A stretch of DNA of 64,000 nucleotides from Candidatus Gottesmanbacteria bacterium UBA6580 (lineage in GTDB: Bacteria > Patescibacteriota > Microgenomatia > UBA10105 > UBA927): positions 376,881 to 440,880 of the forward strand of contig DJJA01000003.1 in the NCBI GenBank assembly GCA_002433895.1, given 5' to 3'. A program made the position numbers and the translations under genes. Under the pieces are notes generated by a model that searched no databases, was not told the DNA's origin, and saw nothing but the letters and a program-made list of their open reading frames with translations. Every line of letters begins with the position of its first letter. Within the stretch, counting starts at the first letter, position 1. Shown here one piece after another: positions 1-64,000 of this stretch.

Positions 1-2417
1 CAAAAAGCCCAGACTTTACCGCCCCTCTTAACGTAACTCTTGAGATGGAAACGGGTACGGGTAAGACTTACGTTTACCTCCGCTCCATTTTAGAGCTATA
101 TCAAAAATATGGACTATCTAAGTTTATTATCGTCGTCCCTACGGTAGCCATTAAAGAGGGCGTTATGAAGTCCCTAGCTATCACTAAAGACCATTTTAAG
201 GGTCTGTATAACAACTTGTCCTATGAGTACTACGAGTATGTATCTACTAAGCTAATGACCGTCCGAATGTTTGCGCAGTCCTCTCACCTGCAAATTATGG
301 TCATTACAAAAGACGCTTTTAATAAAGATAAAAATATCATCCATAACAACCATGACCGCATGGGAGATAAACCAATTTCTCTTATCCAAAAGACTAACCC
401 TATCGTTATCTTAGACGAACCACAGAAGATGGGTGGAGAGGCTACCCAATGGGGCATAAAAGAGCTTAACCCCCTCATAGTACTTAGATACTCTGCTACG
501 CATAGAGATATTGAAAATCTGGTTTACAAGCTTACCCCTTTTGACGCCTATGCCAAAGGTCTAGTTAAAAAAATAGAACTAGCGACCGTTGTAGAGGAAA
601 GCGACCCAAATACCAAAAAGATTATTCTGGAGAATATCTACTCCTCTGGAAGTAGCCTAAAAGCCAAAATAAAGGTGTTCATAAAGCAAGCAACATCCGT
701 GCAACTCAAAACTATTACTGTTGGCTCTGGTGATAACTTAGCTACTAAATCAAAAAATCCATATTACGACGGCTTTACCGTCTCCGAGATTAACTTAGGT
801 AATAACTACATTCTTTTTTCTAATGGTCTAAAGGTGTATGTGGGTCAATCCTCTGTAAATGAGGATGAAATAGTACGCATGATGGTACGTGAGATAGTTT
901 TAGAACACTTGGAAAAAAAGCGAAAGTTTAACCCACTTGGGATTAAGACCCTCTCTCTTTTCTTCATCCACCGTGTAGACGACTACCTACCAGTAGACGG
1001 GTGGCTCCGCAAAATGTTTGAGGAAGAGTACCAGAAAGCTACCAATGCCGACTACCAAGAGTTTAAGACCGCAAGAGTTGACAAGGTACACTCTGGGTAC
1101 TTCTCAGAGATGAAAAAAACCTCCTCAATAGAAAATGACGAGAAAGCCTACGAGCTGATTATGAAAGATAAGGAAAAATTGCTCTCCTTAGATAATCCCG
1201 TGGAGTTTATCTTTTCCCATTCTGCCCTACGTGAGGGATGGGACAACCCCAATATCTTTAATATCTGTACCTTAGCTTACTCAACCTCTGATATTAAAAA
1301 AAGACAGGAAATCGGACGAGGCTTGCGTCTAGTGGTAAACCAGCAAGGAGACCGCATATACGACCGAGATATAAACGTACTTACCGTAGTTACCAACGAA
1401 AGCTACCAAAATTATGTATCTGAATTGCAGACCGAGTTTAGAGATGAGGCAGGAGAAAGCGCCCCACCTGTAGAGCATAAGAAAAAACGAGTTAGCCTAA
1501 CCCTAAAAGATGACGCATTAGCTAACAAGAGCTTCCAGAGCCTTTGGAAGTTACTAGCAAAGCGGGCTAAGTTTGTTGTCTCTATGCAAGAAGAGGAAAT
1601 AATAAGTAAGTGTGTAGATGAAATTAACAAAATTGACGAAAGTAATATCCGAGAAATTCGGGTACGCATTACTAAAACAGGAATAGACACACTTCTACTT
1701 GATGATATTAGAGGCAACATCGTAAGCGACCGAAGCTACGAAATCGGAGCCTCTAAACAGCTACCTAACATTATTGCCCTCCTCCAAGCCGATACTAAGC
1801 TCACCAAGAAAACCCTATTAGCCATACTCCAAAGGGTAAATAATTTTGACCTGTTTTTCAAAAACTCCTACCAGTATGCAAGCCTCGTTTCCTACGCCAT
1901 TAAAACCGTCATATCAGACCTAGCCTCTAAAGGTATTAGCTATGTAGAGATTAGCGACAATTACGGATTATCGCTTTTTAATAAAGAAGTCCAGACTTAC
2001 GAAAAGTATTTAGTAAAGCTAGAGAGCGCCAAGACCCTCTATAAAACAGCAAATAACGGACAAGTGGACGCAGTCATTATTGACCCCAGCCCGTCCGTAG
2101 AGGGTGTATCACAGCCAGAGAAAAGGTTTGCCGAGAACGCAGACCGCAACGATACGGTTAAGTTTTTCTTTAAGCTCCCAGACACCTACTCTATCGCAAC
2201 TCCCGCAGGGCAATATACACCAGACTGGGCGGTAGTAGTTGAAAATGGCGACCATAACCAAGTCTATTTTGTAGCAGAAACTAAGGATACTAATATCATT
2301 AGTAGTCTCCGCCAAGAGGAGCAGATAAAAATACTCTCTGCACGAGCTATGTTTAAGGAAGTCATGCCAGAGGTCATTTTCAAAGCTCCCGTAAGCGAGT
2401 TTAGCGACCTTGCATGA
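1..2417 (+). CDS. res: Type III restriction endonuclease Res subunit (helicase plus C-terminal PD-ExK nuclease); 5'-truncated at window edge, frame open to nt 3
   Basis: Walker A TGTGKT, DEPQ box, helicase motif QEIGRGLRL, C-terminal PDWAVVVE...VYFVAETKD nuclease motif; no stop upstream of first Met. Confidence 0.75.
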   Translation, partial: KSPDFTAPLNVTLEMETGTGKTYVYLRSILELYQKYGLSKFIIVVPTVAIKEGVMKSLAITKDHFKGLYNNLSYEYYEYVSTKLMTVRMFAQSSHLQIMVITKDAFNKDKNIIHNNHDRMGDKPISLIQKTNPIVILDEPQKMGGEATQWGIKELNPLIVLRYSATHRDIENLVYKLTPFDAYAKGLVKKIELATVVEESDPNTKKIILENIYSSGSSLKAKIKVFIKQATSVQLKTITVGSGDNLATKSKNPYYDGFTVSEINLGNNYILFSNGLKVYVGQSSVNEDEIVRMMVREIVLEHLEKKRKFNPLGIKTLSLFFIHRVDDYLPVDGWLRKMFEEEYQKATNADYQEFKTARVDKVHSGYFSEMKKTSSIENDEKAYELIMKDKEKLLSLDNPVEFIFSHSALREGWDNPNIFNICTLAYSTSDIKKRQEIGRGLRLVVNQQGDRIYDRDINVLTVVTNESYQNYVSELQTEFRDEAGESAPPVEHKKKRVSLTLKDDALANKSFQSLWKLLAKRAKFVVSMQEEEIISKCVDEINKIDESNIREIRVRITKTGIDTLLLDDIRGNIVSDRSYEIGASKQLPNIIALLQADTKLTKKTLLAILQRVNNFDLFFKNSYQYASLVSYAIKTVISDLASKGISYVEISDNYGLSLFNKEVQTYEKYLVKLESAKTLYKTANNGQVDAVIIDPSPSVEGVSQPEKRFAENADRNDTVKFFFKLPDTYSIATPAGQYTPDWAVVVENGDHNQVYFVAETKDTNIISSLRQEEQIKILSARAMFKEVMPEVIFKAPVSEFSDLA

Positions 2418-2584
2418 TAAGCCAAAAAAGTACTGATAATCTGAAAAAGATATTTAAGGAGGAGTACAAAGCCGACTTAACAGACGAAGAGGCAAAGGAA
2501 GCAGGTCAAAAGTTGGTGGACTACTTTAGCCTTTTAATAGAGATTGATAAAAAGGCAAAAATTGTTAGGAAAAATGAAATATAA
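2414..2584 (+). CDS. Small hypothetical protein (56 aa), translationally coupled to res via ATGA overlap
   Basis: ATG overlaps the res TGA stop; continuous 56-codon frame ending 3 nt before the recombinase ATG; no homology recognised. Confidence 0.3.
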   Translation: MISQKSTDNLKKIFKEEYKADLTDEEAKEAGQKLVDYFSLLIEIDKKAKIVRKNEI

Positions 2585-2586
2585 AT

Positions 2587-4203
<1,617 letters not shown>

Positions 4204-21706: not shown

Positions 21707-23065
21707 ATGTTTAAAAACCCACGGAGGGTATTTTTTTTGTTATTCATTCTCACGATGCTTCTGATCGTGATTGATTTGCCGGAAAATTACCGTCTCAAAT
21801 TTTCTGCGTTTGGTGTCACTGTTGACCGGGTGATTAATCCTCCCACTATCCGGATTTTTGGATTGGAAAAGAAGCTTACCACCTCCTTGGGGTTAGACCT
21901 CGCGGGAGGAAGCCATGTCGTTTTGGAAGCGGATATGAAGGACATTCGCCAAAGCGACCGTGTGACCGCGTTGGAATCAGCAAAAGAAGTGATAGAGCGC
22001 AGAGTGAACTTTTTCGGCGTGGCGGAGCCGGTGCTGCAGACGGCTGTCTCTGAAAATTCATACCGAATTATCGTGGAATTGCCGGGTGTAAGTGACGTGG
22101 ATCAGGCGATATCGCTTATCGGGCAGACTGCGCTTTTGGATTTCCGTGAATTTACGGACGAGAGCGAGGCGTCGCCCGGAGCTTTTGTAATTCCTACTCT
22201 TGAGACAACAACGTCAGTGGGTCTTACCGGAAAAGATTTGGCGCGGGCAAGTATGCAGTTTAGCCCCAATACAGGAGAACCGGAGATTGCTCTAGAGTTT
22301 AACAGTGAGGGAGGAAAAAAATTCGCGGATGCGACAAAGCGGTTAACCGGCAAGCCGTTAGCTATTTTCCTTGACGACATACCGCTCACCGCCCCTGTCG
22401 TGCAAGGAGTGATACCTGACGGTAAAGCAGTGATTACCGGAAGCTTTACACAGGAAGGGGCAAAAACTCTCGCGCTGCAGTTAAATGCAGGGGCGCTCCC
22501 AGTATCGGTGAAACCCGTTGAGCAGCGCACGGTGGAAGCCACGCTCGGGGCTGAATCAGTCACAAAGAGTATACGGGCAGGAGTAATCGGCCTTGGATTT
22601 GTCGCGGTATTTATGGTTGCCCAATACGGCAGGTTGGGGCTGATCGCCGACGCGGCGCTTGTTTTATATGGCTTACTCACATTTGGATTATTCCGGCTAT
22701 TTGGCGTGACATTGACGTTACCCGGTATTGCCGGATTTTTGCTTTCCATTGGTATGGCGGTTGACAGTAATATACTTATATTTGAGCGGTACAAAGAGGA
22801 GCTCAGGAGCGGGAAGCCTTGGAAAATAGCGATAGAGCATGCGTTTGGAAAAGCGTGGGATAGTATCCGGGACGCAAATTTTACGACGATTATTACCTCA
22901 CTTATCCTATTTAACCCCGGCAACTGGGCGATCCTGCCATCCAGCGGGCTTGTGCGGGGGTTTGCCGCGACTCTGCTTATCGGAGTATTTGTAAGTTTGT
23001 TTACGGGGTTGGTGGTGACGCGGACATTTATCCGTGTGTTTTATTCCGAAAAGCGAAGCGGATAG
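21707..23065 (+). CDS. secD: Protein translocase subunit SecD
   Basis: N-terminal TM, periplasmic domain GLDLAGGSHVVLEAD, C-terminal six TM helices. Confidence 0.9.
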   Translation: MFKNPRRVFFLLFILTMLLIVIDLPENYRLKFSAFGVTVDRVINPPTIRIFGLEKKLTTSLGLDLAGGSHVVLEADMKDIRQSDRVTALESAKEVIERRVNFFGVAEPVLQTAVSENSYRIIVELPGVSDVDQAISLIGQTALLDFREFTDESEASPGAFVIPTLETTTSVGLTGKDLARASMQFSPNTGEPEIALEFNSEGGKKFADATKRLTGKPLAIFLDDIPLTAPVVQGVIPDGKAVITGSFTQEGAKTLALQLNAGALPVSVKPVEQRTVEATLGAESVTKSIRAGVIGLGFVAVFMVAQYGRLGLIADAALVLYGLLTFGLFRLFGVTLTLPGIAGFLLSIGMAVDSNILIFERYKEELRSGKPWKIAIEHAFGKAWDSIRDANFTTIITSLILFNPGNWAILPSSGLVRGFAATLLIGVFVSLFTGLVVTRTFIRVFYSEKRSG

Positions 23066-23131
23066 AATCCGCACGAAGTGCGTACAAGGAGGATCAAAAA
23101 TCGTAAGATTTTATAAGGAGAAAGAAAAAGT

Positions 23132-24013
23132 ATGATACGGTTCAGTAAATTTATCTGGGTGTATGCGATTATTTCCGCGCTTGTGCTCGTACCGGGAATA
23201 TTTTCCCTTGTGCGATACGGATTCCGGCCATCCATAGATTTTTCCGGAGGTACGCTTGTGGAATACCGGACAAGTGCAAAGGTACCGGAGGCGGTTATGC
23301 GTCAGGCAGCTCTCGATGCCGGGGTCAGTCTCGTCAGTATTCAGCAGTCAGGCGGCAGCGCGTATCTTATCCGCATGAAGCCCGAGACAAATCAGAAAAT
23401 TTCACTTATGACGCAGGGCGTAGAACGTCTTGCCTCTGTAAGTGCACTTGCAGTCCGGAATGAAACAGTGGGTCCGACACTCGGAAAAGAATTGTTGTCT
23501 AAAACTTTGATCGCGGCAATTTTGGCAGCCTCAGCAATTCTAGGATATGTAGCGTACGCGTTTAAAAATATCCGGTTCGGCGTTGCCGCGGTGATTGCGC
23601 TGCTTCATGATCTTTTAGTGGTGTTGGGAAGCTTCTCGCTATTTGGGCATTTCCTAGGTGTTGAGGTAGACACCCTGTTTGTCACGGCATTTCTTACCAC
23701 CATGAGTTTTTCTGTGCATGACACGATTGTTGTATTTGACCGTATTCGCGAGTATACGAAGCGTGACCGGTCACGGCCATTTGATGAAATTGCCGATATT
23801 GCGGTTACCGAAACGATGAACCGGTCACTTACCAATTCATTTACGATTATTTTTATGTTGGTAGCATTGGTGTTGATGGGAGGAGATACAACTAAATGGT
23901 TTGTCGTAGCATTGCTTATAGGTACCGTATCCGGAACATATTCCTCACCGTTTGTGGCAACACCAGTGCTGTTGCTGTGGCATAAGCTGGAAGCGAGAAG
24001 GCGGTCACGTTAG
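23132..24013 (+). CDS. secF: Protein translocase subunit SecF
   Basis: SecF topology, conserved IDFSGGT and SVHDTIVVFDRIRE motifs. Confidence 0.9.
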   Translation: MIRFSKFIWVYAIISALVLVPGIFSLVRYGFRPSIDFSGGTLVEYRTSAKVPEAVMRQAALDAGVSLVSIQQSGGSAYLIRMKPETNQKISLMTQGVERLASVSALAVRNETVGPTLGKELLSKTLIAAILAASAILGYVAYAFKNIRFGVAAVIALLHDLLVVLGSFSLFGHFLGVEVDTLFVTAFLTTMSFSVHDTIVVFDRIREYTKRDRSRPFDEIADIAVTETMNRSLTNSFTIIFMLVALVLMGGDTTKWFVVALLIGTVSGTYSSPFVATPVLLLWHKLEARRRSR

Positions 24014-24023
24014 CCCTGGGTTT

Positions 24024-25406
24024 TTAGTGTGCAGCAAGATTTTTTAATTCTTCCATCCGCTTCAGAAGGGCATCTCTGTCGTTTTGTAATGTGCCTGCTT
24101 CGACTTCAGCAAACAACGCGTCTAGTACTTTGCCGATAATGGGGCCGGGTTTAGTGTCATAGAGTTTCATGACATCATGTCCGTTTACGTGTAAATCAGA
24201 AACGGCAAATGGTTGCAGTTGCACTTCTTCCAGCCGTTTTTTGTATAACTCCAGGCGCCACGATGTTTCGGTGGCTCCACCGCCGAGCCTGTCGCCAATC
24301 CGGAGTGCCAGGATATGGGGAAGATTTTCTTTGCCAACTCTTCGGATAAAACGCCGCAACGCGCTATCGGTTTGGCGTTCATCGACGCTGAACTGATGCC
24401 ACCGCACCAAGGTATACAGCAGATCAGATTGTTTTTTGGAGAGCCGTAGTCTCCGCCCGATGTCTTTTGCGATATGGGCACCTGCCACCTCGTGATTGTA
24501 AAACGTGATAAGCCCTGTTTTGTCCTGGCGGAATGTTTTGGGCTTTCCTAAATCATGGATAAGGGTGGCAAGCCGCACCACGGGGTCGGTAGACGGACAG
24601 AACTTCATCGCCATGACCGAGTGGGTGCCTACATCGTATATATGATGCCGTTTAGGGCTTTTTTGCGGAGTGGCAAATGAAGATTCCAGTTCCGGCAAAA
24701 TATAAAGCAGCAAACCGAGATTTTTTAAAACCAATATTGCGTCAGCGGCATGGGTGGCAGTCAGAATTTTAAAAAACTCATCGCGTATGCGCTCCGCCGA
24801 AATTTGTGTGAGAGAGGAGGCGTGCGAGGAGATCGCCTTTGCGGTTTCGTCTTCTATGGTAAAACCCAGCCGCGCGGCAAACCGGACTGCCCGGAGCATG
24901 CGGAGCGCGTCTTCGGCGAACCGTTCAGACGCAATGCCAACCGTGCGGATGCGTTTTTCGTTGAGATCTTTTTGTCCGCCATACGGGTCGATTAAGCTTT
25001 TGCCGTCAAACGCGATCGCGTTTATCGTAAAGTCGCGCCGGGCGAGGTCTTCTGTGAGTGTTTTGCCCCAGGAAATTTTATCCGGGTGGCGGTGATCCTC
25101 GTATCCTTCTTCGCTCCGGTATGTCGTGATTTCGTAAATATCTTCAAGCTCTTCATTTCCGTTTGGCGCGGTGGTATCCCCCTGTTTTCTGATTTTTATA
25201 CCGACCGTCCCAAAGAGGTTGTCATAAAAACTATCGGGGAAAAGCGCGAGAATTTCTTCTGGAGTTGCGTTTGTGGTGAAATCCCAGCCTTTGGTTTCCA
25301 TACCCAGGAGTAAATCCCGTACGGATCCTCCTACTGCATAGGCTTCAAATCCCGCTTTTTTCAGGATGTCGATCACTGTTACCGCTGATTGAGGAAGGCT
25401 GATCAT
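24024..25406 (-). CDS. cca: CCA-adding tRNA nucleotidyltransferase with HD domain
   Basis: GGSVRDLLLG class-II NTase head, HD motif IHDLGK; consistent with tRNA genes lacking encoded CCA. Confidence 0.85.
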   Translation of the reverse strand: MISLPQSAVTVIDILKKAGFEAYAVGGSVRDLLLGMETKGWDFTTNATPEEILALFPDSFYDNLFGTVGIKIRKQGDTTAPNGNEELEDIYEITTYRSEEGYEDHRHPDKISWGKTLTEDLARRDFTINAIAFDGKSLIDPYGGQKDLNEKRIRTVGIASERFAEDALRMLRAVRFAARLGFTIEDETAKAISSHASSLTQISAERIRDEFFKILTATHAADAILVLKNLGLLLYILPELESSFATPQKSPKRHHIYDVGTHSVMAMKFCPSTDPVVRLATLIHDLGKPKTFRQDKTGLITFYNHEVAGAHIAKDIGRRLRLSKKQSDLLYTLVRWHQFSVDERQTDSALRRFIRRVGKENLPHILALRIGDRLGGGATETSWRLELYKKRLEEVQLQPFAVSDLHVNGHDVMKLYDTKPGPIIGKVLDALFAEVEAGTLQNDRDALLKRMEELKNLAAH

Positions 25407-25424
25407 ACTGATATTATACCCCCA

Positions 25425-27098
25425 ATGGCTAAGAAGTGGCAGATAAGTAAACAGTTCACTCCGATCCGATCGGAGTTAACCGCGGAGCTGATCATAGAAG
25501 ATATCCTCAAAGACAGGGGAATTATCACCCCCGCGGAGCGGGCAGCTTTTTTGGCTCCCCCTGATCCTAGCTCGTTGCGGGCAAAAGACGTAGACATTGA
25601 TCCTAAAGCATTGGCAAAAGCGATAGCCCGTATTCAAAAAGCGATAAAGAATAAAGAATCAGTAGTGGTGTATGCCGATTATGATGCGGACGGCATTACT
25701 GCCGGCGCTATCATGTGGGAAACGCTGTGGCACATGGGAGCAAGGGTAATGCCCTACATCCCACACCGCGTGGACGAAGGGTATGGACTATCGGAAAAAG
25801 GAATAGATGCCGTACGCAGCCAATATGACCCCACGCTGATTATTACTGTGGATCACGGGATAACCGCAAAAGAGCAGGTGAAGTACGCCAAAAAACTTGG
25901 AATAGAAGTGATTATTACCGATCACCATGTGAAGCCCGATAAGATACCGGATTGCCAGATTGTGCATACGACACTCCTTTCCGGGAGCGGAGTTTCATGG
26001 TTTGTATCCAAAGAATTACTTGCGGCAAGTGGCAACGATGCCGGTCAACACGAGCGTGAGCTTACCGCGCTTGCGGCGGTAGGTACTATCGCTGATTTGT
26101 TGCCATTAACCGGTATTAACCGGTCTATTGTAAAGTTTGGGCTTGGGGTGCTCCGTAAGACAAATAGGATAGGATTTAACGCGCTTATTACAGAAGCGGG
26201 GATAGCAAAGGAAGCGATAGATACCTATACCGTGTCCCATATGCTCGCCCCGCGGCTTAACGCGATGGGGAGATTAGAACACGCGTTGGACGCGCTACGG
26301 CTGCTTTGTACAAAAGATCAGGTAAAGGCAGATTTACTGGCGCAAAAGTTAGGAACAACTAATAAAGAACGGCAACAGCTCACCATAGATACGGTGACGC
26401 ACGCAAAAGAATTGGTACCAAAAACACTTAAAAATATCATTGTTATATCACATGAATATTATAACCCGGGGGTCATTGGGTTGGTGGCCGGGAGATTGGT
26501 GGAGGAGTATTGGCGGCCATCAATAGTACTTGCCATAGCAGATGGTTTTGCCAAGGCATCTGCCCGCAGTATTCCCGGATTTAATATTGTTGAGGCAATC
26601 AGAAGTTGCAGCGATTTATTGGTAGATGTGGGGGGTCATCCGATGGCGGCAGGTTTTACGGTGGTTGCGGAAAAAATTCCGGCACTCACAAAGCGGCTGG
26701 AAGCGCTCGCGGAAAAAGAGATTGATGAAGAGATGCTCAAGCGTGTGCTGAAAATTGACGCGGAAATACCTTTTACTATGGCTTCGGAATCGCTCTGGCA
26801 GAAGATACAAAAACTGGAGCCGTTTGGATTTGGAAATTATGAGCCGCTCTTCGCGTCTATGGGGGTATTGGTAAGTGATGTCCGCATGATCGGAGCCACC
26901 CGGAAACATCTAAAACTAAAGGTGCATATGCCGGGGTCACAGCGGGTAGTCGATGCGGTGGCGTTTAATATGGCTGAACTTTACGGGAGTTTACAAGGGA
27001 GTGATTCCGTAAACATTGCCTACACCATCGATATGAATGAGTGGAACGGGAAGCGGAATTTGCAGTTAAAGATAAAAGATATAGCAATACCGCAATAA
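25425..27098 (+). CDS. recJ: Single-stranded-DNA-specific exonuclease RecJ
   Basis: DHH motifs (ADYDADGITA, ITVDHGI, ITDHH), DHHA1 domain, C-terminal OB fold; track ORF starts at 25389 overlapping cca, the Met at 25425 is more plausible. Confidence 0.85.
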   Translation: MAKKWQISKQFTPIRSELTAELIIEDILKDRGIITPAERAAFLAPPDPSSLRAKDVDIDPKALAKAIARIQKAIKNKESVVVYADYDADGITAGAIMWETLWHMGARVMPYIPHRVDEGYGLSEKGIDAVRSQYDPTLIITVDHGITAKEQVKYAKKLGIEVIITDHHVKPDKIPDCQIVHTTLLSGSGVSWFVSKELLAASGNDAGQHERELTALAAVGTIADLLPLTGINRSIVKFGLGVLRKTNRIGFNALITEAGIAKEAIDTYTVSHMLAPRLNAMGRLEHALDALRLLCTKDQVKADLLAQKLGTTNKERQQLTIDTVTHAKELVPKTLKNIIVISHEYYNPGVIGLVAGRLVEEYWRPSIVLAIADGFAKASARSIPGFNIVEAIRSCSDLLVDVGGHPMAAGFTVVAEKIPALTKRLEALAEKEIDEEMLKRVLKIDAEIPFTMASESLWQKIQKLEPFGFGNYEPLFASMGVLVSDVRMIGATRKHLKLKVHMPGSQRVVDAVAFNMAELYGSLQGSDSVNIAYTIDMNEWNGKRNLQLKIKDIAIPQ

Positions 27099-27323
27099 AC
27101 AAAAATCCCCACATTCTTACCAGCGCTTCATGCCGGAGAATATGGGGATTATGAATAATAGATTTTCCTCATACACGCTTGGATTGAAAAAGTGAATAAT
27201 TTAATGAATTCACTCCTTCAGAAAAAGCGTGTATAAGGACAAAATGTCGAAATTGGGTGTGAGACCAAAGAAAATACATGGTAAGCAGCAAGTTGCTTAG
27301 TGTTATTTCTTTGTGAGTCTCCT

Positions 27324-27371
27324 GCCCAAAAATAAAACTATGGAGACCTCTCCATAACGAGGTCTCCATAG
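27324..27371 (-). terminator. Intrinsic terminator (minus strand) after small Cys/His-rich ORF
   Basis: 11-bp perfect palindrome CTATGGAGACC/GGTCTCCATAG followed on the minus strand by UUUUAUUUUU. Confidence 0.6.
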
Positions 27372-27389
27372 AGAAGTTTGCCCCCACGC

Positions 27390-27659
27390 CTAATGTGGTT
27401 GTGTCCGCTGTCGACGCTTCGGTTCGTGGCGGTGTTCGTCGTGATGGCTATGGTCGGGGTGTCCTTTGGAACACCACGTGCAAGTATTTTCGCGACCCGG
27501 GGTCGGGGCAGAGCATCTACCACCTTTATGGTGTTTTTTGCTTCTACAGTTGCATGTTGCCACAGACGTTTGTGATTTGGGTGTCAACGCCTGGATGACT
27601 TGTAAAAACATTGATTGTTTTATGGTTACTGGAACTGAACCTGTTCGCCTCTTACTCAT
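27390..27659 (-). CDS. Small Cys/His-rich basic protein (89 aa), unknown function
   Basis: SD AGGAG 7 nt upstream of ATG; CxC...C...CxxC then HPDHSHHDEHRHE His-rich tail; intrinsic terminators on both sides; region is open in several frames, so coding status uncertain. Confidence 0.35.
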   Translation of the reverse strand: MSKRRTGSVPVTIKQSMFLQVIQALTPKSQTSVATCNCRSKKHHKGGRCSAPTPGRENTCTWCSKGHPDHSHHDEHRHEPKRRQRTQPH

Positions 27660-27775
27660 GATTGACTCCTCTTGCTAAATGACTTGCCCGGATAAAATGG
27701 TTGATCGTTAAATTTTTTCACTGCAGACTTCATAAGCAAACCTCTTTTTTGAATTTTTTCGGTGATGTTGTCGGA

Positions 27776-27815
27776 TAAGGAAAAAGACAGAAAAGGACAG
27801 GCTAATTTTCTGTCT
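27776..27815 (-). terminator. Intrinsic terminator (minus strand) after small ORF A
   Basis: AGACAGAAAA/TTTTCTGTCT 10-bp stem, 11-nt loop, U5 tail on the minus strand. Confidence 0.5.
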
Positions 27816-27865
27816 TTATCATTGTCCAAGAACTAACTCTCAAAATTGTTAAGGTGCCAAATACT

Positions 27866-28045
27866 TTACTCTTGTCCCTGTGCCGTTTGTGTGCCAGCAG
27901 CGTTGGCGCTCCCTGTGTCGGGTGCCATAGGAAATATGACCGTCACGGACTGCGCCTCGTTGGTGACGGATGCGATCATCCATGCCACCGGAGGCCGTTT
28001 CTCGGGTACTATTTCTGCCGCTAATTGTTTGTCCGTTTCGTTCAT
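27866..28045 (-). CDS. Small hypothetical protein (59 aa) with strong SD
   Basis: AAGGAG-N6-ATG ribosome binding site; MNETDKQLAAEIVPEKRPPVAWMIASV...; flanked by terminators; a Cys-rich plus-strand ORF overlaps and is the alternative. Confidence 0.35.
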   Translation of the reverse strand: MNETDKQLAAEIVPEKRPPVAWMIASVTNEAQSVTVIFPMAPDTGSANAAGTQTAQGQE

Positions 28046-28164
28046 GTATCTCCTTTGTGCTATCGCCATGTCTTGCTGTCCGCCTAATTCTGAGGCTCAC
28101 AGAACGACTATTGGCGGATTGATGGTTAGTACATTCGCTCGTCTGAACTCGTTTATTTTCTAAC

Positions 28165-28190
28165 CATCAAAAAACCCCTCTTTTGGAGGG
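28165..28190 (-). terminator. Intrinsic terminator / attenuator within the minus-strand leader
   Basis: CCCCUC-CAAAA-GAGGGG hairpin followed by UUUUUU on the minus strand, about 115 nt downstream of a consensus promoter and upstream of small ORF A. Confidence 0.55.
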
Positions 28191-28312
28191 GTTCGTGTGT
28201 TTGGTTTTAAAAAGTTTTTTAAGCTGCCATCACACGACCCCCCCGACATTTCGGAGGTTAATAAGGGTCATAAAGTGTGATTGCTGCCAAGATTTCATAG
28301 TCACAGTCAATT

Positions 28313-28341
28313 ATTATAAATAGACAACTTATCTCTTGTCA
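28313..28341 (-). promoter_or_regulatory. Consensus sigma70 promoter firing leftward (TTGACA-17-TATAAT)
   Basis: Reverse complement reads TTGACAagagataagttgtctatTTATAAT; -35 hexamer overlaps the -35 of the divergent aspS promoter. Confidence 0.5.
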
Positions 28342-28363
28342 ACCGGTAATCGGGCAAATATAA
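28335..28363 (+). promoter_or_regulatory. Sigma70 promoter for the T-box leader and aspS (TTGTCA-17-TATAAT)
   Basis: TTGTCAaccggtaatcgggcaaaTATAAT, perfect -10, 17-nt spacer. Confidence 0.55.
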
Positions 28364-28369
28364 TAAGAA

Positions 28370-28556
28370 ATGAAGTACGCGATGATGGCCTGACAAGCCG
28401 GAGTGGCCCGGGGTAACAACCGGAACGGGTATGCCCGTAATAGCTCTAATAAGATCCGCCTACGCAAAAGCTACGGCGAGATGAAATAAGGTGGTACCGC
28501 GAATTACCCGTTCGCCCTTATACTATTACTAGTAAGGAGAACGGGTTTGTTGTGTC
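28370..28556 (+). promoter_or_regulatory. T-box riboswitch leader, putative Asp specifier (GAC)
   Basis: T-box consensus AAUAAGGUGGUACCGCG at 28485-28502; terminator ACCCGUUC...GAACGGGU + UUUGUUGUGU; candidate specifier loop CCUGACAAG; directly upstream of aspS. Confidence 0.6.
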
Positions 28557-60030: not shown

Positions 60031-60894
60031 ATGGCAACCCTTACCGCAGAATCATACAATACCGGATTTTTACCGACCTGGTGCCCGGGGTGCGGGGACT
60101 TCGGGATATGGAAATCCCTGCAGGGCGCGTTTGCCAAACTCGGTATCGGACCGGATGATGGATTTATCGTCTATGGCATTGGCTGCCACGGCAACATGTA
60201 TGACTGGATGAAAATGTACGGTTTTGCAGGGTTGCACGGTAGAGCATTGCCCGTTGCTCAGGGAGCAAAGCTCGCCAACCACACGCTCCCTGTTGTTGTT
60301 GTATCGGGAGATGGTGACTGCCTGGGAGAAGGCGGTAACCACTTCATGCACGCAGCCAAAAGAAATCCGGATATTACCGTCATTATCCATGACAATCAGG
60401 TGTATGGGTTGACTACCGGTCAGGCATCGCCTACCGCTAAGCCAGGATTTAAAACCAAATCGACACCGGAGGGTTCGACTGACGCGCCGGTTAATCCGCT
60501 CGCGCTCGCGATCGTATCCGGCGCGACATTTGTCGCGCGCGGGTTTGCCGGAGATTTACCCGGACTCACCGCGCTGATGACTGAGGCGATGAACCATAAG
60601 GGTTTTGCGGTGCTCGATGTAATGCAGCCGTGTGTTACCTTTGATAAAGTACATACATATCAGTGGTACCGCCAGCGGTTGTACCGGCTTGCAGACAGCG
60701 GATATACGCCCGATAACAAGCTTACAGCGCTGGAAAAAGCGATGGAGTGGGGAGACAAAATTCCGTTGGGCGTCTTTTATAAAGAAGATAAGCCAACCAG
60801 TGAAGCTCTGGAGCCTGCGCTTTCAGGTGCACCTCTAAACCGCTTGCCGTTGGAGGTAGCGCATTGGGACAAGCTACTCAATGAATTTGTGTGA
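60031..60894 (+). CDS. korB: 2-oxoacid:ferredoxin oxidoreductase beta (TPP-binding) subunit
   Basis: WCPGCGDFG, GIGCHG, SGDGD TPP motifs. Confidence 0.85.
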   Translation: MATLTAESYNTGFLPTWCPGCGDFGIWKSLQGAFAKLGIGPDDGFIVYGIGCHGNMYDWMKMYGFAGLHGRALPVAQGAKLANHTLPVVVVSGDGDCLGEGGNHFMHAAKRNPDITVIIHDNQVYGLTTGQASPTAKPGFKTKSTPEGSTDAPVNPLALAIVSGATFVARGFAGDLPGLTALMTEAMNHKGFAVLDVMQPCVTFDKVHTYQWYRQRLYRLADSGYTPDNKLTALEKAMEWGDKIPLGVFYKEDKPTSEALEPALSGAPLNRLPLEVAHWDKLLNEFV

Positions 60895-60922
60895 TGCGGG
60901 ATACTCTCATCAAAATCGGGGG

Positions 60923-60960
60923 TTGACAATTGATTAGCACTTGTTATACTAGAGTGCTAA
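60923..60960 (+). promoter_or_regulatory. lon promoter (TTGACA-16-TATACT) overlapped by a CIRCE-like HrcA operator
   Basis: TTAGCACTT-GTTATACTA-GAGTGCTAA matches TTAGCACTC-N9-GAGTGCTAA in 17 of 18 positions; the -10 lies in the spacer. Confidence 0.6.
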
Positions 60961-60969
60961 TACGTCATT

Positions 60970-63396
60970 ATGAGTACTTCACTCGACAATCCAAATCAGA
61001 TGTTACCAGTTGTCCCGATACGGGACGGCATCGTGTTTCCGGGTACCGAAATGATCCTCACTTTCGGCCGGCAGCGTTCGGTAAAAGCTATTGAAGCAGC
61101 ACAAAATGCCGGTAGGCGGGTTGTGCTCGTCATGCAACGCAACCCCAATATCAATGATCCTACACCGTCTGACTTATACCAGATTGGTACGGTCGGAGAA
61201 ATCGTGCAGATGATGCGCAACGAAGGAGAAATAAATGCGTTGGTGCGCGGTATTTCAAAAGTCGAGCTTACTTCATATGAAGCTGTAGAGCCGTTTTTCG
61301 TGGCGAGAGTGGCTGAGATTGCCGATGTCATTGAGGACGATGAGGAAACCAAAGCTTTATTTAACCACCTCACTAACGAACTCAGACAAGCGGTGAAGCT
61401 TGGGAAAACCATGGACTTTCTGACATTTATGAATATTATGTCCGGCATGTCGCCGGAGACATTGTCGTATCAGCTGGCAGGTGTGATGGATACAAAGCCC
61501 AGCGAACGCCAGGAGCTGTTGGAAATAAATTCCGTAAAAGCCCGTTTTGAAAAAGAAGCGGCGTATCTTGCCAAAGAAGTAAAAGTGTTGGAGTTGGAGA
61601 AAAAAATTGCGACAAAAACCCAAGAGAAATTTGAGAAAAATGTAAAAGAGCAGGTGCTTCGCGAGCGCATAAAAACGATCGAAAAAGAGCTCGGTGACGA
61701 CGATGAGAATAAAGAGTTTAAAGAGCTTGCCGATAAGATCAAAAAGGCAGGCATGCCGCAGGAAGTAAAGGAAAAGGCGGAAAAAGAACTACGCCGCCTC
61801 ACGCAAATGTCCCAATACAATCCGGAAGCCTCTTATGTGCGGACATACCTTGATTGGCTGGTGGAAGTACCGTGGAACGAAGAGAGTGCTAACACCGTCA
61901 ATTTGTCGGATGCGGAGAAGGTGCTTAATCAGGATCACTACGCGTTGGGGAAAATAAAAGAGCGTATTTTAGAGTTTTTGGCTGTGATGAAGTTGCGGAG
62001 TGCGAGTGATGAACCCGCAGAGAAAGCGGAAAAAACTCCAAAGAGTGCGGCCGAAAAAATGACCCCAAAGCGTGGCAGTAAATCCGCGCCAACAATTTTG
62101 TGTTTTGTCGGCCCGCCCGGTGTGGGAAAAACATCCATCGGAAAATCAATTGCCCGTTCGTTGGGACGCAAGTTTGTCAAAATGTCACTGGGTGGCATAC
62201 GGGATGAAGCAGAAATCCGTGGACACCGCAGAACCTATGTAGGAGCGATGCCGGGACGCATCATCCAAGGCATCAAGCAGGCAGGCACCAAAAACCCGGT
62301 ATTTATGTTGGATGAGATCGACAAAGTCGGGGCAGATTTCCGCGGTGACCCATCAGCCGCACTGCTCGAAGCGCTCGATCCGGAGCAAAACTACGCATTT
62401 TCTGATCATTATCTGGAAGTGCCGTATGATTTGTCTGAGGTATTTTTTATCACGACCTGTAACGTACTCGATACAATTCCACCGGCGCTCCGGGACAGAC
62501 TGGAGATTATCCGTTTTGCCGGATACACGGAAGATGAAAAATTCCACATTGCTAAAGACTATCTGTTTGAAAAACAGCGGGTAATCCACGGGGTGCCTAC
62601 TAAAGTTGTTGATATTGCTGATGAAGGGCTCCGGGAAATTATCAGACAATACACCCGGGAAGCAGGGGTGCGTAACCTGGAGCGCGAAATAGCAACCATT
62701 TTCCGGAAGGTTGCCAAAAAGATTGCCGACTCGGACGCAAAAAACAGGAAATCATTTGCGATTAAGCCCGCTGATCTACAGACCTATTTGGGACCCACGA
62801 AATTTACGTCATCCTTGGCAGAGAAGAAGGATGAAGTGGGTATGTCTACCGGACTCGCGTGGACTGAAGCCGGAGGAGATATATTGTTTATCGAGGTCGC
62901 CCTTATGCCGGGCCGCGGAACGCTTATTCTCACCGGTCAACTGGGTGACGTCATGAAAGAATCCGCGCAGGCGGCTATGTCCTACGTGCGGAGCCGATGG
63001 AAGGCGCTCAAGTTACCGGAAAAGTTTTACCAGAAGCTTGATGTTCATGTACACGTACCGGAGGGTGCGGTTCCCAAAGACGGTCCGTCGGCGGGAGCAG
63101 CGATCGCTACCGCGATTGTCTCGGCGCTCAGCAAAAAAGCCGCTAAGCGGTTGGTCGCTATGACCGGAGAAATTACGCTCCGGGGTAGGGTACTCGAGAT
63201 AGGCGGCGTGAAAGAAAAAGTGATTGCGGCGCACAGGGCAGGTATCAAAGATGTGATATTGCCCAAAAATAATAAAAAGGACTTGGAAGATATACCCAAA
63301 GCAGTCATGACCGACCTGAAGTTCCATTTTGTGGAACACATGGACGAGGTGCTCAAGGTAGCCATGCCTTCACTCAAGTTTTCGGCACAAAACTAA
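60970..63396 (+). CDS. lon: ATP-dependent protease Lon
   Basis: LON N-domain, Walker [11 protein letters not shown]16 catalytic DGPSAG with K dyad; Lys/Glu-rich insertion around residues 335-375. Confidence 0.95.
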
Positions 63397-63407: not shown

Positions 63408-64000
63408 CTACTGCTTCATGTAGTCGTACACTGTTTTTGATAGTGACGCCATGAGCTTGTCCGTTTCTTCGCCTTCGGTGGTACCGTTGGTGAATACCCC
63501 AATGTAATACGTATGTTTCCCGTCGGTAACAATACCGGCGTCATGGATAATGCCGACTTCCGTGCCTATTTTATGATAGGCGGTGACGCCATCCGGCAGG
63601 TCGCCCGGAATTCTTGTTTCGAAGTCGGTATCTTTGAGAAACGAGAGCATTTCAAGCGTGTGTGCTTCATCGGTAACTTTGCGGTCGTAGATCAGGCGGA
63701 ATATCTTTGCCATATCCTGGTTCGATGTTTTATTGGCAACCAAGTCTGTTTGGGTAAGTCCCCAAGTGGCAGCTATTTCTTTTAATTTTGGAAACCCGAC
63801 GATGTGATTTGCTAGGATATAGGCTGCGGTATTGTCACTTTGTTTGATCATGAGTTTTGCGAGTGTTTTTACAGAATAGACGGTGCCGGGATCGTTATAA
63901 CGGATGGAGCCCGTGCCGTAATCCTGAATATCATTTGCCTGTACCGTGATATCACGGTCAAGATCGATTTCTCCATTGTTTGCGTAGTAGTAAAGGGCCG
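63408..64000 (-). CDS. Class-A beta-lactamase-like / PBP serine hydrolase, 5' part beyond window end
   Basis: SDN motif MIKQSDNTAA, KIG(KTG-like) triad YHKIGTE; frame stays open upstream of the first Met to nt 64000. Confidence 0.6.
   Translation of the reverse strand, partial: ALYYYANNGEIDLDRDITVQANDIQDYGTGSIRYNDPGTVYSVKTLAKLMIKQSDNTAAYILANHIVGFPKLKEIAATWGLTQTDLVANKTSNQDMAKIFRLIYDRKVTDEAHTLEMLSFLKDTDFETRIPGDLPDGVTAYHKIGTEVGIIHDAGIVTDGKHTYYIGVFTNGTTEGEETDKLMASLSKTVYDYMKQ

What the first reader, a model, noticed from the sequence alone, without database searches (positions are those of the whole stretch)
60923..60960. CIRCE (HrcA operator) overlapping the lon promoter
TTAGCACTT-N9-GAGTGCTAA matches the CIRCE consensus in 17 of 18 positions, and the -10 hexamer TATACT lies in the 9-nt spacer. 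HrcA-CIRCE classically controls groESL and dnaK. Direct HrcA control of lon is far less common and would place Lon in the heat-shock regulon of this organism.
Basis: partly seen in the sequence, partly recalled or inferred. Interest (0 to 1): 0.55.

Follow-up and report, generated by a model that had tools for sequence, protein, structure and literature searches.

The report
HrcA operator inside the lon promoter
A near-perfect binding site for the heat-shock repressor HrcA sits inside the promoter of the Lon protease gene of an uncultured Gottesmanbacteria (CPR) bacterium; it is conserved in all 80 relatives examined, so Lon very probably belongs to this lineage's stress regulon, as it does in mycoplasmas.

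Summary
Window 60934-60960 reads TTAGCACTT-N9-GAGTGCTAA, 17 of 18 CIRCE positions. It is the only such site in 64 kb (0 expected). It lies inside a strong sigma-70-type promoter (TTGACA, 16 nt, TG-n-TATACT), 9 nt before lon.

The window comes from a Candidatus Gottesmanbacteria (CPR/Patescibacteria) genome. All 80 related lon loci fetched carry the same element at the same place. The half-sites carry about 1.6 bits per position and the flanks about 0.1.

The window has no hrcA, dnaK or groE, and I could not reach this genome's own hrcA. Related Gottesmanbacteria genomes with CIRCE-lon do encode hrcA-grpE-dnaK-dnaJ, once on the same 1.22-Mb contig, behind the same kind of promoter-embedded CIRCE. 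A metagenome scan for this module gave mostly hrcA operons and lon, plus groES, clpB and hsp20.

Best reading: HrcA blocks RNA polymerase at lon and releases it under protein-folding stress. CIRCE control of lon is already established in Mollicutes, so this is a new member of a known kind. I found no paper on HrcA in CPR.

By-products: CPR HrcA is a short, roughly 243-residue form usually annotated 'hypothetical', and many of these promoters appear to give leaderless mRNAs.

The parts
60923..60928 (+). -35 hexamer TTGACA of the lon promoter
   Evidence: TTGAC is conserved upstream of the operator in the 80 relatives, in two registers: a 5-nt gap in close relatives and a 1-nt gap in distant ones.
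60934..60942 (.). CIRCE left half-site TTAGCACTT
   Evidence: Mean information content 1.60 bits per position across 81 sequences; positions 2, 4, 5 and 6 are invariant.
60943..60951 (.). 9-nt CIRCE spacer GTTATACTA, which carries the -10 element
   Evidence: Spacer information content 1.03 bits against 0.11-0.15 in the flanks.
60945..60950 (+). -10 hexamer TATACT, preceded by TG at 60942-60943 (extended -10)
   Evidence: 16-nt spacing from the -35, 11 of 12 matches, TG present.
60952..60960 (.). CIRCE right half-site GAGTGCTAA
   Evidence: Information content 1.65 bits per position.
60956..60960 (+). Predicted transcription start zone, 6-10 nt after the -10 and inside the right half-site; it implies a 5' UTR of about 10-14 nt with no Shine-Dalgarno motif
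   Evidence: Inference from promoter geometry. No SD-like 4-mer in the 20 nt before the ATG. Not mapped experimentally.
60970..63396 (+). lon (ATP-dependent endopeptidase La, 808 aa). Monocistronic, because the next gene is convergent.
   Evidence: TIGR00763 903 bits, cutoff 608. The convergent beta-lactamase-like gene follows at 63408.
60031..60894 (+). Context only: end of the upstream co-directional 2-oxoacid:ferredoxin oxidoreductase genes (beta subunit). It stops 28 nt before the -35, and only a weak terminator-like hairpin lies at 60862-60883.

Best explanation
The 27-bp inverted repeat at 60934-60960 is an operator for the repressor HrcA (a CIRCE element) built into the core promoter of lon. 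The left half-site fills most of the gap between the -35 and the -10. The -10 hexamer lies in the 9-nt spacer, and the right half-site covers the predicted transcription start. An HrcA dimer bound here would keep RNA polymerase off the promoter. When HrcA loses activity under heat or other protein-folding stress, lon would be transcribed together with the hrcA-grpE-dnaK-dnaJ operon and other chaperone genes; in studied bacteria that loss occurs because chaperones are titrated away by unfolded proteins. Shown here: the sequence, its improbability by chance, its strict conservation in position and sequence across the family, and, in related genomes, an HrcA gene whose own promoter carries the same operator. 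Inferred: HrcA binding, repression, the stress signal, the transcription start, and the presence of hrcA in this particular genome.
For: 1. Match and chance: 17 of 18 consensus positions, the only site in 64 kb, 0 expected.

2. Promoter: the site sits inside a near-consensus promoter (11/12 plus TG), 9 nt upstream of a bona fide lon.

3. Conservation: all 80 lon loci from Gottesmanbacteria and Levybacteria genomes (Lon 63-97% identical) have the element directly upstream of lon. 74 of them match at 4 or fewer mismatches and the rest at 5. Only 2 other four-mismatch hits occur in about 640 kb of fetched DNA.

4. Footprint: information content is 1.60 and 1.65 bits per position in the arms and 1.03 in the spacer, against 0.11-0.15 in the flanks.

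5. Two layouts, one logic: close relatives have a 5-nt gap after the -35 and the -10 inside the spacer. Distant relatives have a 1-nt gap and the -10 across the spacer/right-arm junction. In both, the -10 stays inside the operator.

6. Regulator in relatives: short HrcA genes head hrcA-grpE-dnaK-dnaJ operons in Gottesmanbacteria genomes that also have CIRCE-lon.
- P0403 lies on contig_74641 (CAWBPL010000002.1, 1,222,826 bp), the same contig as lon locus L036.
- P0358 lies in MAG CAZQTD01, the same MAG as L027.
- P0351, P0304 and P0306 lie on contigs of the same lengths as the contigs of L039, L040 and L038.
- Their promoters read TTGACA-N4-TTAGCACTC-N9-TAnTGCTAA.

7. Metagenome sample: 120 contigs carrying TTGACA-N0-6-TTAGCA-N15-TGCTAA were examined. 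The downstream gene is hrcA in 57, lon in 28-33, groES in 5-6 and clpB in 1. Seven more are Hsp20-like ORFs, one confirmed as PF00011 and the rest judged by eye.

8. Precedent: lon is under HrcA/CIRCE control in Mycoplasma pneumoniae, M. gallisepticum and Spiroplasma melliferum (PMC7737663; PMC5138195).
Against: No hrcA, grpE, dnaK or groES/EL lies in the window, in the 10 kb beyond lon, or in the 3-kb flanks of the 80 lon loci. This organism's own hrcA was not recovered: its exact Lon lies on a 1,132,570-bp contig that the tools cannot read beyond +/-10 kb. The Gottesmanbacteria HrcA is a short form. It scores 185-195 bits on TIGR00331, just under the 197.2 cutoff, and lacks the inserted domain that forms the main dimer contact in the Thermotoga structure, so its DNA binding is assumed rather than shown. 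The groES-CIRCE link was seen only on contigs of unassigned lineage. There are no expression or binding data at all.
Confidence: 0.85

Rival explanations
1. The palindrome is bound by a transcription factor other than HrcA, with a similar specificity. lon is regulated, but not as part of the HrcA regulon.
For: This genome's hrcA was not seen. The lineage's HrcA is an atypical short form scoring below the NCBIfam equivalog cutoff.
Against: The same motif sits in the promoter of the hrcA operon itself in related genomes, the classic autoregulatory signature. The wHTH region, including the SPATIRNEM stretch, aligns with Thermotoga HrcA, and the modelled fold matches 1STZ. The motif is the canonical CIRCE consensus and not merely a palindrome.
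Confidence: 0.04
2. The inverted repeat works as an RNA hairpin, either as an mRNA stability element or as a terminator-like structure for read-through transcripts from the upstream oxidoreductase genes, and not as a DNA operator.
For: As RNA, the window's copy folds into a 10-bp stem of -11.6 kcal/mol, z = -3.4 against shuffles. No strong terminator separates the upstream gene from lon. From my own knowledge, CIRCE has been reported to affect mRNA stability in some bacteria.
Against: Across 81 sequences, arm positions 7 and 9 are complementary in only 41% and 5% of cases, while each half-site sequence is conserved. That is the pattern of a protein-binding half-site, not a base-paired stem. 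No T-run follows the repeat. The conserved promoter places the start inside the right arm, so the hairpin is not in the lon mRNA made from this promoter.
Confidence: 0.04
3. It is a chance palindrome or a decaying relic with no present function.
For: One mismatch to the consensus. No functional data.
Against: 0 of 100 shuffles give a match. 80 of 80 relatives keep it while the flanks have lost all similarity.
Confidence: 0.02

Closest known systems
HrcA/CIRCE control of lon in Mollicutes (Mycoplasma pneumoniae MPN332, M. gallisepticum, Spiroplasma melliferum)
   Same: A CIRCE element directly upstream of lon puts the protease in the same regulon as dnaK, clpB and groESL, in small-genome bacteria with few regulators (PMC7737663; PMC5138195).
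   Different: Different phylum (Patescibacteria/CPR). Here the operator is fused with the -35/-10 elements and the start site, not merely located upstream of the coding region. The regulator in the lineage is a roughly 243-aa HrcA without the inserted domain. Nothing has been tested experimentally.
Classical CIRCE regulon of Bacillus subtilis (dnaK and groE operons)
   Same: The same 9-N9-9 consensus, an autoregulated hrcA-grpE-dnaK-dnaJ operon, and a sigma-70-type promoter.
   Different: From my own knowledge, in B. subtilis the operators lie between the transcription start and the start codon, lon is not a member, and HrcA is about 340 aa. A comparative study of delta-proteobacteria found groESL to be the only constant HrcA target in that group, with lon behind sigma-32-like promoters (PMC545781).
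Sigma-32 (RpoH) control of lon in Escherichia coli and other proteobacteria
   Same: Lon is co-induced with chaperones by protein-folding stress.
   Different: That is positive control by an alternative sigma factor; here it is negative control by a repressor at a housekeeping-type promoter. Whether this genome has rpoH or ctsR was not testable.
Thermotoga maritima HrcA (PDB 1STZ)
   Same: It is the best structural match of the modelled Gottesmanbacteria HrcA: TM 0.78-0.80 normalised to the query. The N-terminal wHTH aligns by sequence, E = 7e-15.
   Different: About 90 residues of 1STZ have no counterpart: 244 query residues against 311-323, with 328-337 alignment columns. TIGR00331 aligns only model positions 1-125 plus a C-terminal stretch. 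This fits absence of the inserted dimerising domain; the domain boundaries are from memory of the 1STZ paper.

Membership tests
CIRCE (HrcA operator) | 9-bp inverted repeat with a 9-bp spacer matching TTAGCACTC-N9-GAGTGCTAA | tested here: met
   17/18 positions, unique in the window, 0 expected by chance.
CIRCE (HrcA operator) | Located in the promoter or 5' region of a protein-quality-control gene | tested here: met
   It overlaps the -10 and the predicted start of the lon promoter, 9 nt before the lon ATG.
CIRCE (HrcA operator) | An hrcA gene in the same genome | not testable with these tools
   Absent from the window, from the 10 kb beyond lon and from the 3-kb flanks of the 80 lon loci. 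The rest of the 1.13-Mb contig could not be fetched. Met in relatives: hrcA and CIRCE-lon share contig CAWBPL010000002.1 and MAG CAZQTD01.
CIRCE (HrcA operator) | The same operator at the hrcA/dnaK and groE operons of the lineage | tested here: met
   hrcA-grpE-dnaK-dnaJ: met in every Gottesmanbacteria-type hrcA locus checked (10 loci from 6 distinct promoters). groES-groEL: seen only on contigs of unassigned lineage (L129 and others).
CIRCE (HrcA operator) | HrcA binding and stress-dependent derepression | not testable with these tools
   No binding or expression data. The organism is uncultured.
LonA protease (downstream gene) | Full-length match to the endopeptidase La model above its curated cutoff | tested here: met
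   TIGR00763: 903 bits, cutoff 608, residues 13-798. Pfam LON_substr_bdg, AAA, Lon_lid and Lon_C on the identical protein.
HrcA repressor (regulator found in relatives) | Match to the HrcA family models | tested here: inconclusive
   Pfam PF01628: 64-72 bits, above the 22.2 cutoff, tested on metagenome short HrcAs including the Gottesmanbacteria-cluster L197; PF03444 lies near its cutoff. NCBIfam TIGR00331: 185-195 bits, just below the 197.2 cutoff.
HrcA repressor (regulator found in relatives) | wHTH plus GAF-like fold of HrcA | tested here: met
   AlphaFold model with pLDDT 90.1. Best PDB match is 1STZ, TM 0.78-0.80 on the query, E = 7e-14.
HrcA repressor (regulator found in relatives) | Inserted dimerising domain of canonical (about 340 aa) HrcA | tested here: not met
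   The proteins are about 243 aa. About 90 residues of 1STZ and TIGR00331 positions from about 126 to roughly 220 have no counterpart.

The most novel reading that the evidence does not exclude
In Microgenomates, and probably much of the CPR, a minimal 243-residue HrcA (wHTH plus GAF-like domain, no inserted dimerising domain) would be the single master regulator of one compact proteostasis regulon: hrcA-grpE-dnaK-dnaJ, lon, groESL, clpB and hsp20. The regulon would be wired through operators fused to the core promoter and largely leaderless mRNAs. The regulator has gone unnoticed because annotation pipelines call it 'hypothetical protein'. With Lon under HrcA, the protease could also feed back on the repressor.
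Probability: 0.3. Interest if true: 0.55.

Novelty: new member of a known kind. Interest (0 to 1): 0.42.

Why it matters
CPR bacteria make up a large share of bacterial diversity, yet almost nothing is known about how they regulate genes. The held literature has one incidental paper mentioning both HrcA and Patescibacteria and none pairing HrcA with 'candidate phyla radiation'.

This site gives a concrete, testable regulatory circuit for an uncultured lineage. A conserved operator-in-promoter places the main quality-control protease under the same repressor as the chaperones. That parallels the independent solution in genome-reduced Mollicutes, and it suggests that small genomes merge protease and chaperone control under HrcA.

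It also flags a practical annotation gap. The lineage's HrcA falls just below NCBI's family cutoff and is mostly labelled hypothetical, so surveys may wrongly score CPR genomes as lacking a heat-shock regulator.

Tried and rejected
**Looking for chaperone and regulator genes near the site**
- A profile of CPR HrcAs against six-frame translations of the window and loci L001-L106 gave nothing.
- Gottesmanbacteria HrcA, GrpE, DnaK and DnaJ against the window at E <= 1 gave nothing.
- Extending 10 kb beyond lon by exact-protein look-up showed no hrcA.

**Trying to reach a Gottesmanbacteria HrcA, and then this organism's own**
- The profile search returned only 'central' HrcAs of other lineages.
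- A guess based on cca-hrcA adjacency (L169) led to Roizmanbacteria. That adjacency appears in only 3 of 32 informative loci, so the cca-anchor idea was dropped.
- Cluster labels then identified L197 as Gottesmanbacteria, which solved the family-level question.
- Look-ups of P0066, P0001, P0372, P0418, P0354, P0446 and P0426 gave further hrcA operons. None came from the samples or the contig that hold the window's exact Lon, so this organism's own hrcA remains unseen.

**Other checks**
- One broad literature query on HrcA and CPR terms was uninformative.
- Rfam finds only two tRNAs in the window.
- The readings as a terminator or RNA stem and as a chance palindrome were considered and rejected.

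Full report

Yes. The window reads TTGACA (60923-60928), ATTGA, TTAGCACTT (60934-60942), GTTATACTA (60943-60951), GAGTGCTAA (60952-60960), then TACGTCATT and an ATG at 60970.

No other site in the 64-kb window matches at up to three mismatches, and none of 100 dinucleotide-preserving shuffles produced a match.

The consensus scan finds a single promoter-like site in 60700-61100. It is TTGACA, a 16-nt spacer and TATACT, with 11 of 12 matches and a TG one base before the -10. The -10 therefore lies inside the CIRCE spacer, the left half-site fills most of the -35/-10 spacer, and the right half-site covers the expected transcription start.

The ORF that follows (60970-63396, 808 aa) is lon. It scores 903 bits on TIGR00763 against a cutoff of 608. 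The next gene is convergent, so lon stands alone.

**2. What organism is this?**

A scan of one genome per species with the Lon protein returned 80 loci with Lon 63-97% identical.
- Those with informative titles are mostly Candidatus Gottesmanbacteria, with Levybacteria at the distant end. Both belong to Microgenomates (Patescibacteria/CPR).
- The best hit is MAG UBA5942 at 97%.
- The exact Lon protein occurs on 18 public contigs, the longest 1,132,570 bp, which is probably a near-complete genome.
- The gene content of the window fits a small CPR genome.

**3. Is the element conserved?**

Every one of the 80 lon loci has a CIRCE-like repeat directly upstream of lon. 74 match at 4 or fewer mismatches and the remainder at 5. 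Only two other four-mismatch hits, both inside coding sequence, occur in the roughly 640 kb fetched.

I anchored 81 sequences on the repeat and measured information content per position.

| Region | Bits per position |
|---|---|
| Left half-site | 1.60 |
| Spacer | 1.03 |
| Right half-site | 1.65 |
| Flanks | 0.11-0.15 |

The flanks are fully randomised, so the conservation reflects selection and not recent common ancestry. The cores TTAGCA and TGCTAA are almost invariant.

Arm positions 7 and 9 are conserved as sequence but are complementary in only 41% and 5% of sequences. That is what a dimeric protein reading two half-sites predicts, and it argues against a base-paired RNA stem. The window's copy could still fold as RNA, at -11.6 kcal/mol.

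Two promoter layouts occur.
- Close relatives, like the window, have a 5-nt gap after the -35 and TATACT in the spacer.
- Distant Gottesmanbacteria and Levybacteria have a 1-nt gap and a TG-n-TAGACT -10 that spans the spacer/right-arm junction.

In both layouts the -10 stays inside the operator. This argues that overlap with the core promoter is itself under selection.

**4. Is there an HrcA, and are the classical targets controlled the same way?**

This could not be tested on the genome itself. The window, the 10 kb beyond lon and the flanks of the 80 loci contain no hrcA, grpE, dnaK or groES/EL. I therefore used the one metagenome scan to look for the promoter-plus-operator module TTGACA-N0-6-TTAGCA-N15-TGCTAA.

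The gene directly downstream of the module was as follows.

| Downstream gene | Contigs |
|---|---|
| hrcA (usually hrcA-grpE-dnaK) | 57 |
| lon (31-76% identical to the window's) | 28-33 |
| groES(-groEL) | 5-6 |
| clpB | 1 |
| Hsp20-like ORFs (one confirmed as PF00011, the rest by eye) | 7 |

So this module marks a proteostasis regulon with lon as its second most frequent member.

Cluster labels then identified one of these HrcAs (L197) as Gottesmanbacteria. Members of its 90% cluster sit on contigs of 1,020,031 and 241,662 bp, the lengths of the contigs that hold lon loci L040 and L038. A search seeded with L197 found three further links.
- P0403 lies on contig_74641 (CAWBPL010000002.1, 1,222,826 bp), the same contig as lon locus L036.
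- P0351 lies on an 840,518-bp contig, the length of the L039 contig.
- P0358 lies in MAG CAZQTD01, the MAG of L027.

In all of these the layout is murJ, GH39, cohesin-like gene, then hrcA-grpE-dnaK-dnaJ. The promoter reads TTGACA-N4-TTAGCACTC-N9-TAnTGCTAA.

They remain untested for this exact strain.

**5. How does it most likely work?**

HrcA binds the inverted repeat as a dimer and occludes the -10 and the start site of a strong housekeeping-type promoter. Loss of HrcA activity under protein-folding stress frees the promoter. Lon then rises together with DnaK, DnaJ and GrpE, and probably with GroESL, ClpB and Hsp20.

The sequence anatomy, the conservation and the co-occurrence with an autoregulated hrcA are shown. 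Binding, the nature of the signal and the start site are inferred. I put the probability that this is a functional HrcA operator controlling lon at about 0.85. The rivals are another regulator, an RNA-level role, and a chance or relic palindrome. None exceeds a few percent, for the reasons given under each.

**6. How does it compare with what is known?**

CIRCE/HrcA classically controls groESL and dnaK. In a comparative study of delta-proteobacteria, groESL was the only constant HrcA target and lon carried sigma-32-like promoters (PMC545781).

Control of lon by HrcA/CIRCE is nevertheless established in Mollicutes.
- In M. pneumoniae, lon has a CIRCE element upstream and belongs to the HrcA regulon (PMC7737663).
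- In S. melliferum and M. gallisepticum, lon is one of three HrcA-controlled promoters (PMC5138195).

The present case is therefore a new member of a known kind, in a different and barely studied phylum. Full-text searches found one paper containing both 'HrcA' and 'Patescibacteria', an oral-microbiota survey with a single mention, and none pairing HrcA with 'candidate phyla radiation'.

**7. What else turned up?**

*Short HrcA.* The lineage's HrcA is about 243 aa instead of about 340.
- Pfam PF01628 is met.
- TIGR00331 gives 185-195 bits, just under its 197.2 cutoff. This probably explains why NCBI records call these proteins 'hypothetical protein'.
- An AlphaFold model (pLDDT 90) matches Thermotoga HrcA 1STZ with TM 0.78-0.80, while about 90 target residues stay unmatched. 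This fits loss of the inserted dimerising domain.
- At least 7,643 sequence clusters of this form exist.

*Leaderless layout.* The start codon lies within 5 nt of the operator in 37 of 57 hrcA modules and 16 of 28 lon modules, often sharing the last A of TGCTAA. The median operator-to-ATG distance in the 80 lon loci is 10 nt. With the -10 inside the operator, this implies leaderless or nearly leaderless mRNAs. The window's lon has no Shine-Dalgarno motif.

**8. Verdict**

Novelty is modest: a known mechanism and a known type of target, in a new lineage. The interest lies mainly in giving CPR biology a concrete regulon and in the short, under-annotated HrcA.

Noticed in passing
L230:6001-6735, L232:6001-6735, L197:444-1175 and 46 metagenome loci (alignments A1, A2): HrcA in Microgenomates/CPR is a short form of about 243 aa (wHTH plus GAF-like domain) that lacks about 90 residues of canonical HrcA. 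It scores just below the TIGR00331 cutoff and is mostly annotated 'hypothetical protein' in NCBI records. At least 7,643 clusters exist.
   Followed up: partly
window 60957-60972; L108, L113, L124, L156, L159, L176 and others: Many CIRCE promoters of hrcA and lon place the ATG 0-5 nt after the operator, sometimes sharing the last A of TGCTAA. This implies leaderless mRNAs. The window's lon has a predicted leader of about 10-14 nt without an SD motif, and only 15 of 47 window genes have an SD-like 4-mer.
   Followed up: partly
L088, L090, L092-L095, L098, L099, L101-L104 (IMG/VR contigs): A family of 'viral' contigs (GC about 0.45-0.48) each carries one near-identical module: GTTTAAACGC-TTGACA-(0-1 nt)-TTAGCAGTC-N9-GAGTGCTAA-...-GTTTAAAC. 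This is a CIRCE-like operator abutting a -35, with no chaperone, lon or hrcA gene on the locus. It may be a phage promoter wired to the host HrcA.
   Followed up: partly
L097:7037-7100 (172-kb IMG/VR contig): Two perfect or near-perfect CIRCE copies lie in tandem, 10 nt apart (TTAGCACTC-N9-GAGTGCTAA twice), behind a TTGACA.
   Followed up: no
L120 (ERZ761596 NODE-1, 1.17 Mb), L121, L164, L196, L210, L212, L221; L118; L129: The same promoter-embedded CIRCE precedes small heat-shock protein genes (Hsp20; PF00011 confirmed for L120 only, the others judged by eye), clpB (L118) and a groES-small ORF-groEL operon (L129:1052-1321 is GroES). These suggest the wider regulon. The lineages of these contigs were not assigned.
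   Followed up: partly
L001-L080, 30-nt region upstream of lon: There are two registers of the -35 relative to the operator. A 5-nt gap with the -10 inside the spacer occurs where Lon is roughly 72% or more identical (with a few exceptions). A 1-nt gap with the -10 across the spacer/right arm occurs in distant Gottesmanbacteria and Levybacteria. The promoter was rebuilt around a fixed operator.
   Followed up: yes
window 27099-28547: A 1.45-kb stretch between recJ and aspS has no convincing ORF, only short overlapping ORFs in several frames. It has no Rfam hit and no similarity to HrcA, GrpE, DnaK or DnaJ.
   Followed up: partly
window 21707-27098 versus L169, L112, L199, L211: In Roizmanbacteria-like contigs, secD-secF-cca is followed divergently by the CIRCE-hrcA operon. 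In the window the same block is followed by recJ instead. In Gottesmanbacteria, hrcA sits after murJ-GH39-cohesin.
   Followed up: partly
window 45-4203: A helicase-like ORF (45-2417) and a serine-recombinase-like ORF (2587-4149) abut and overlap a tRNA gene (4131-4203, minus strand). This may be an integrated element at a tRNA. The two protein assignments are by eye only.
   Followed up: no
record titles of L005, L009, L011-L013 and many others; names of P0052 and P0102: Many public MAG records whose Lon is 64-90% identical to Gottesmanbacteria Lon are titled 'uncultured Gammaproteobacteria bacterium'. Short CPR-type HrcAs also appear under 'Nevskiaceae' and 'Bathyarchaeia'. These are likely mislabelled or mis-binned records.
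   Followed up: no
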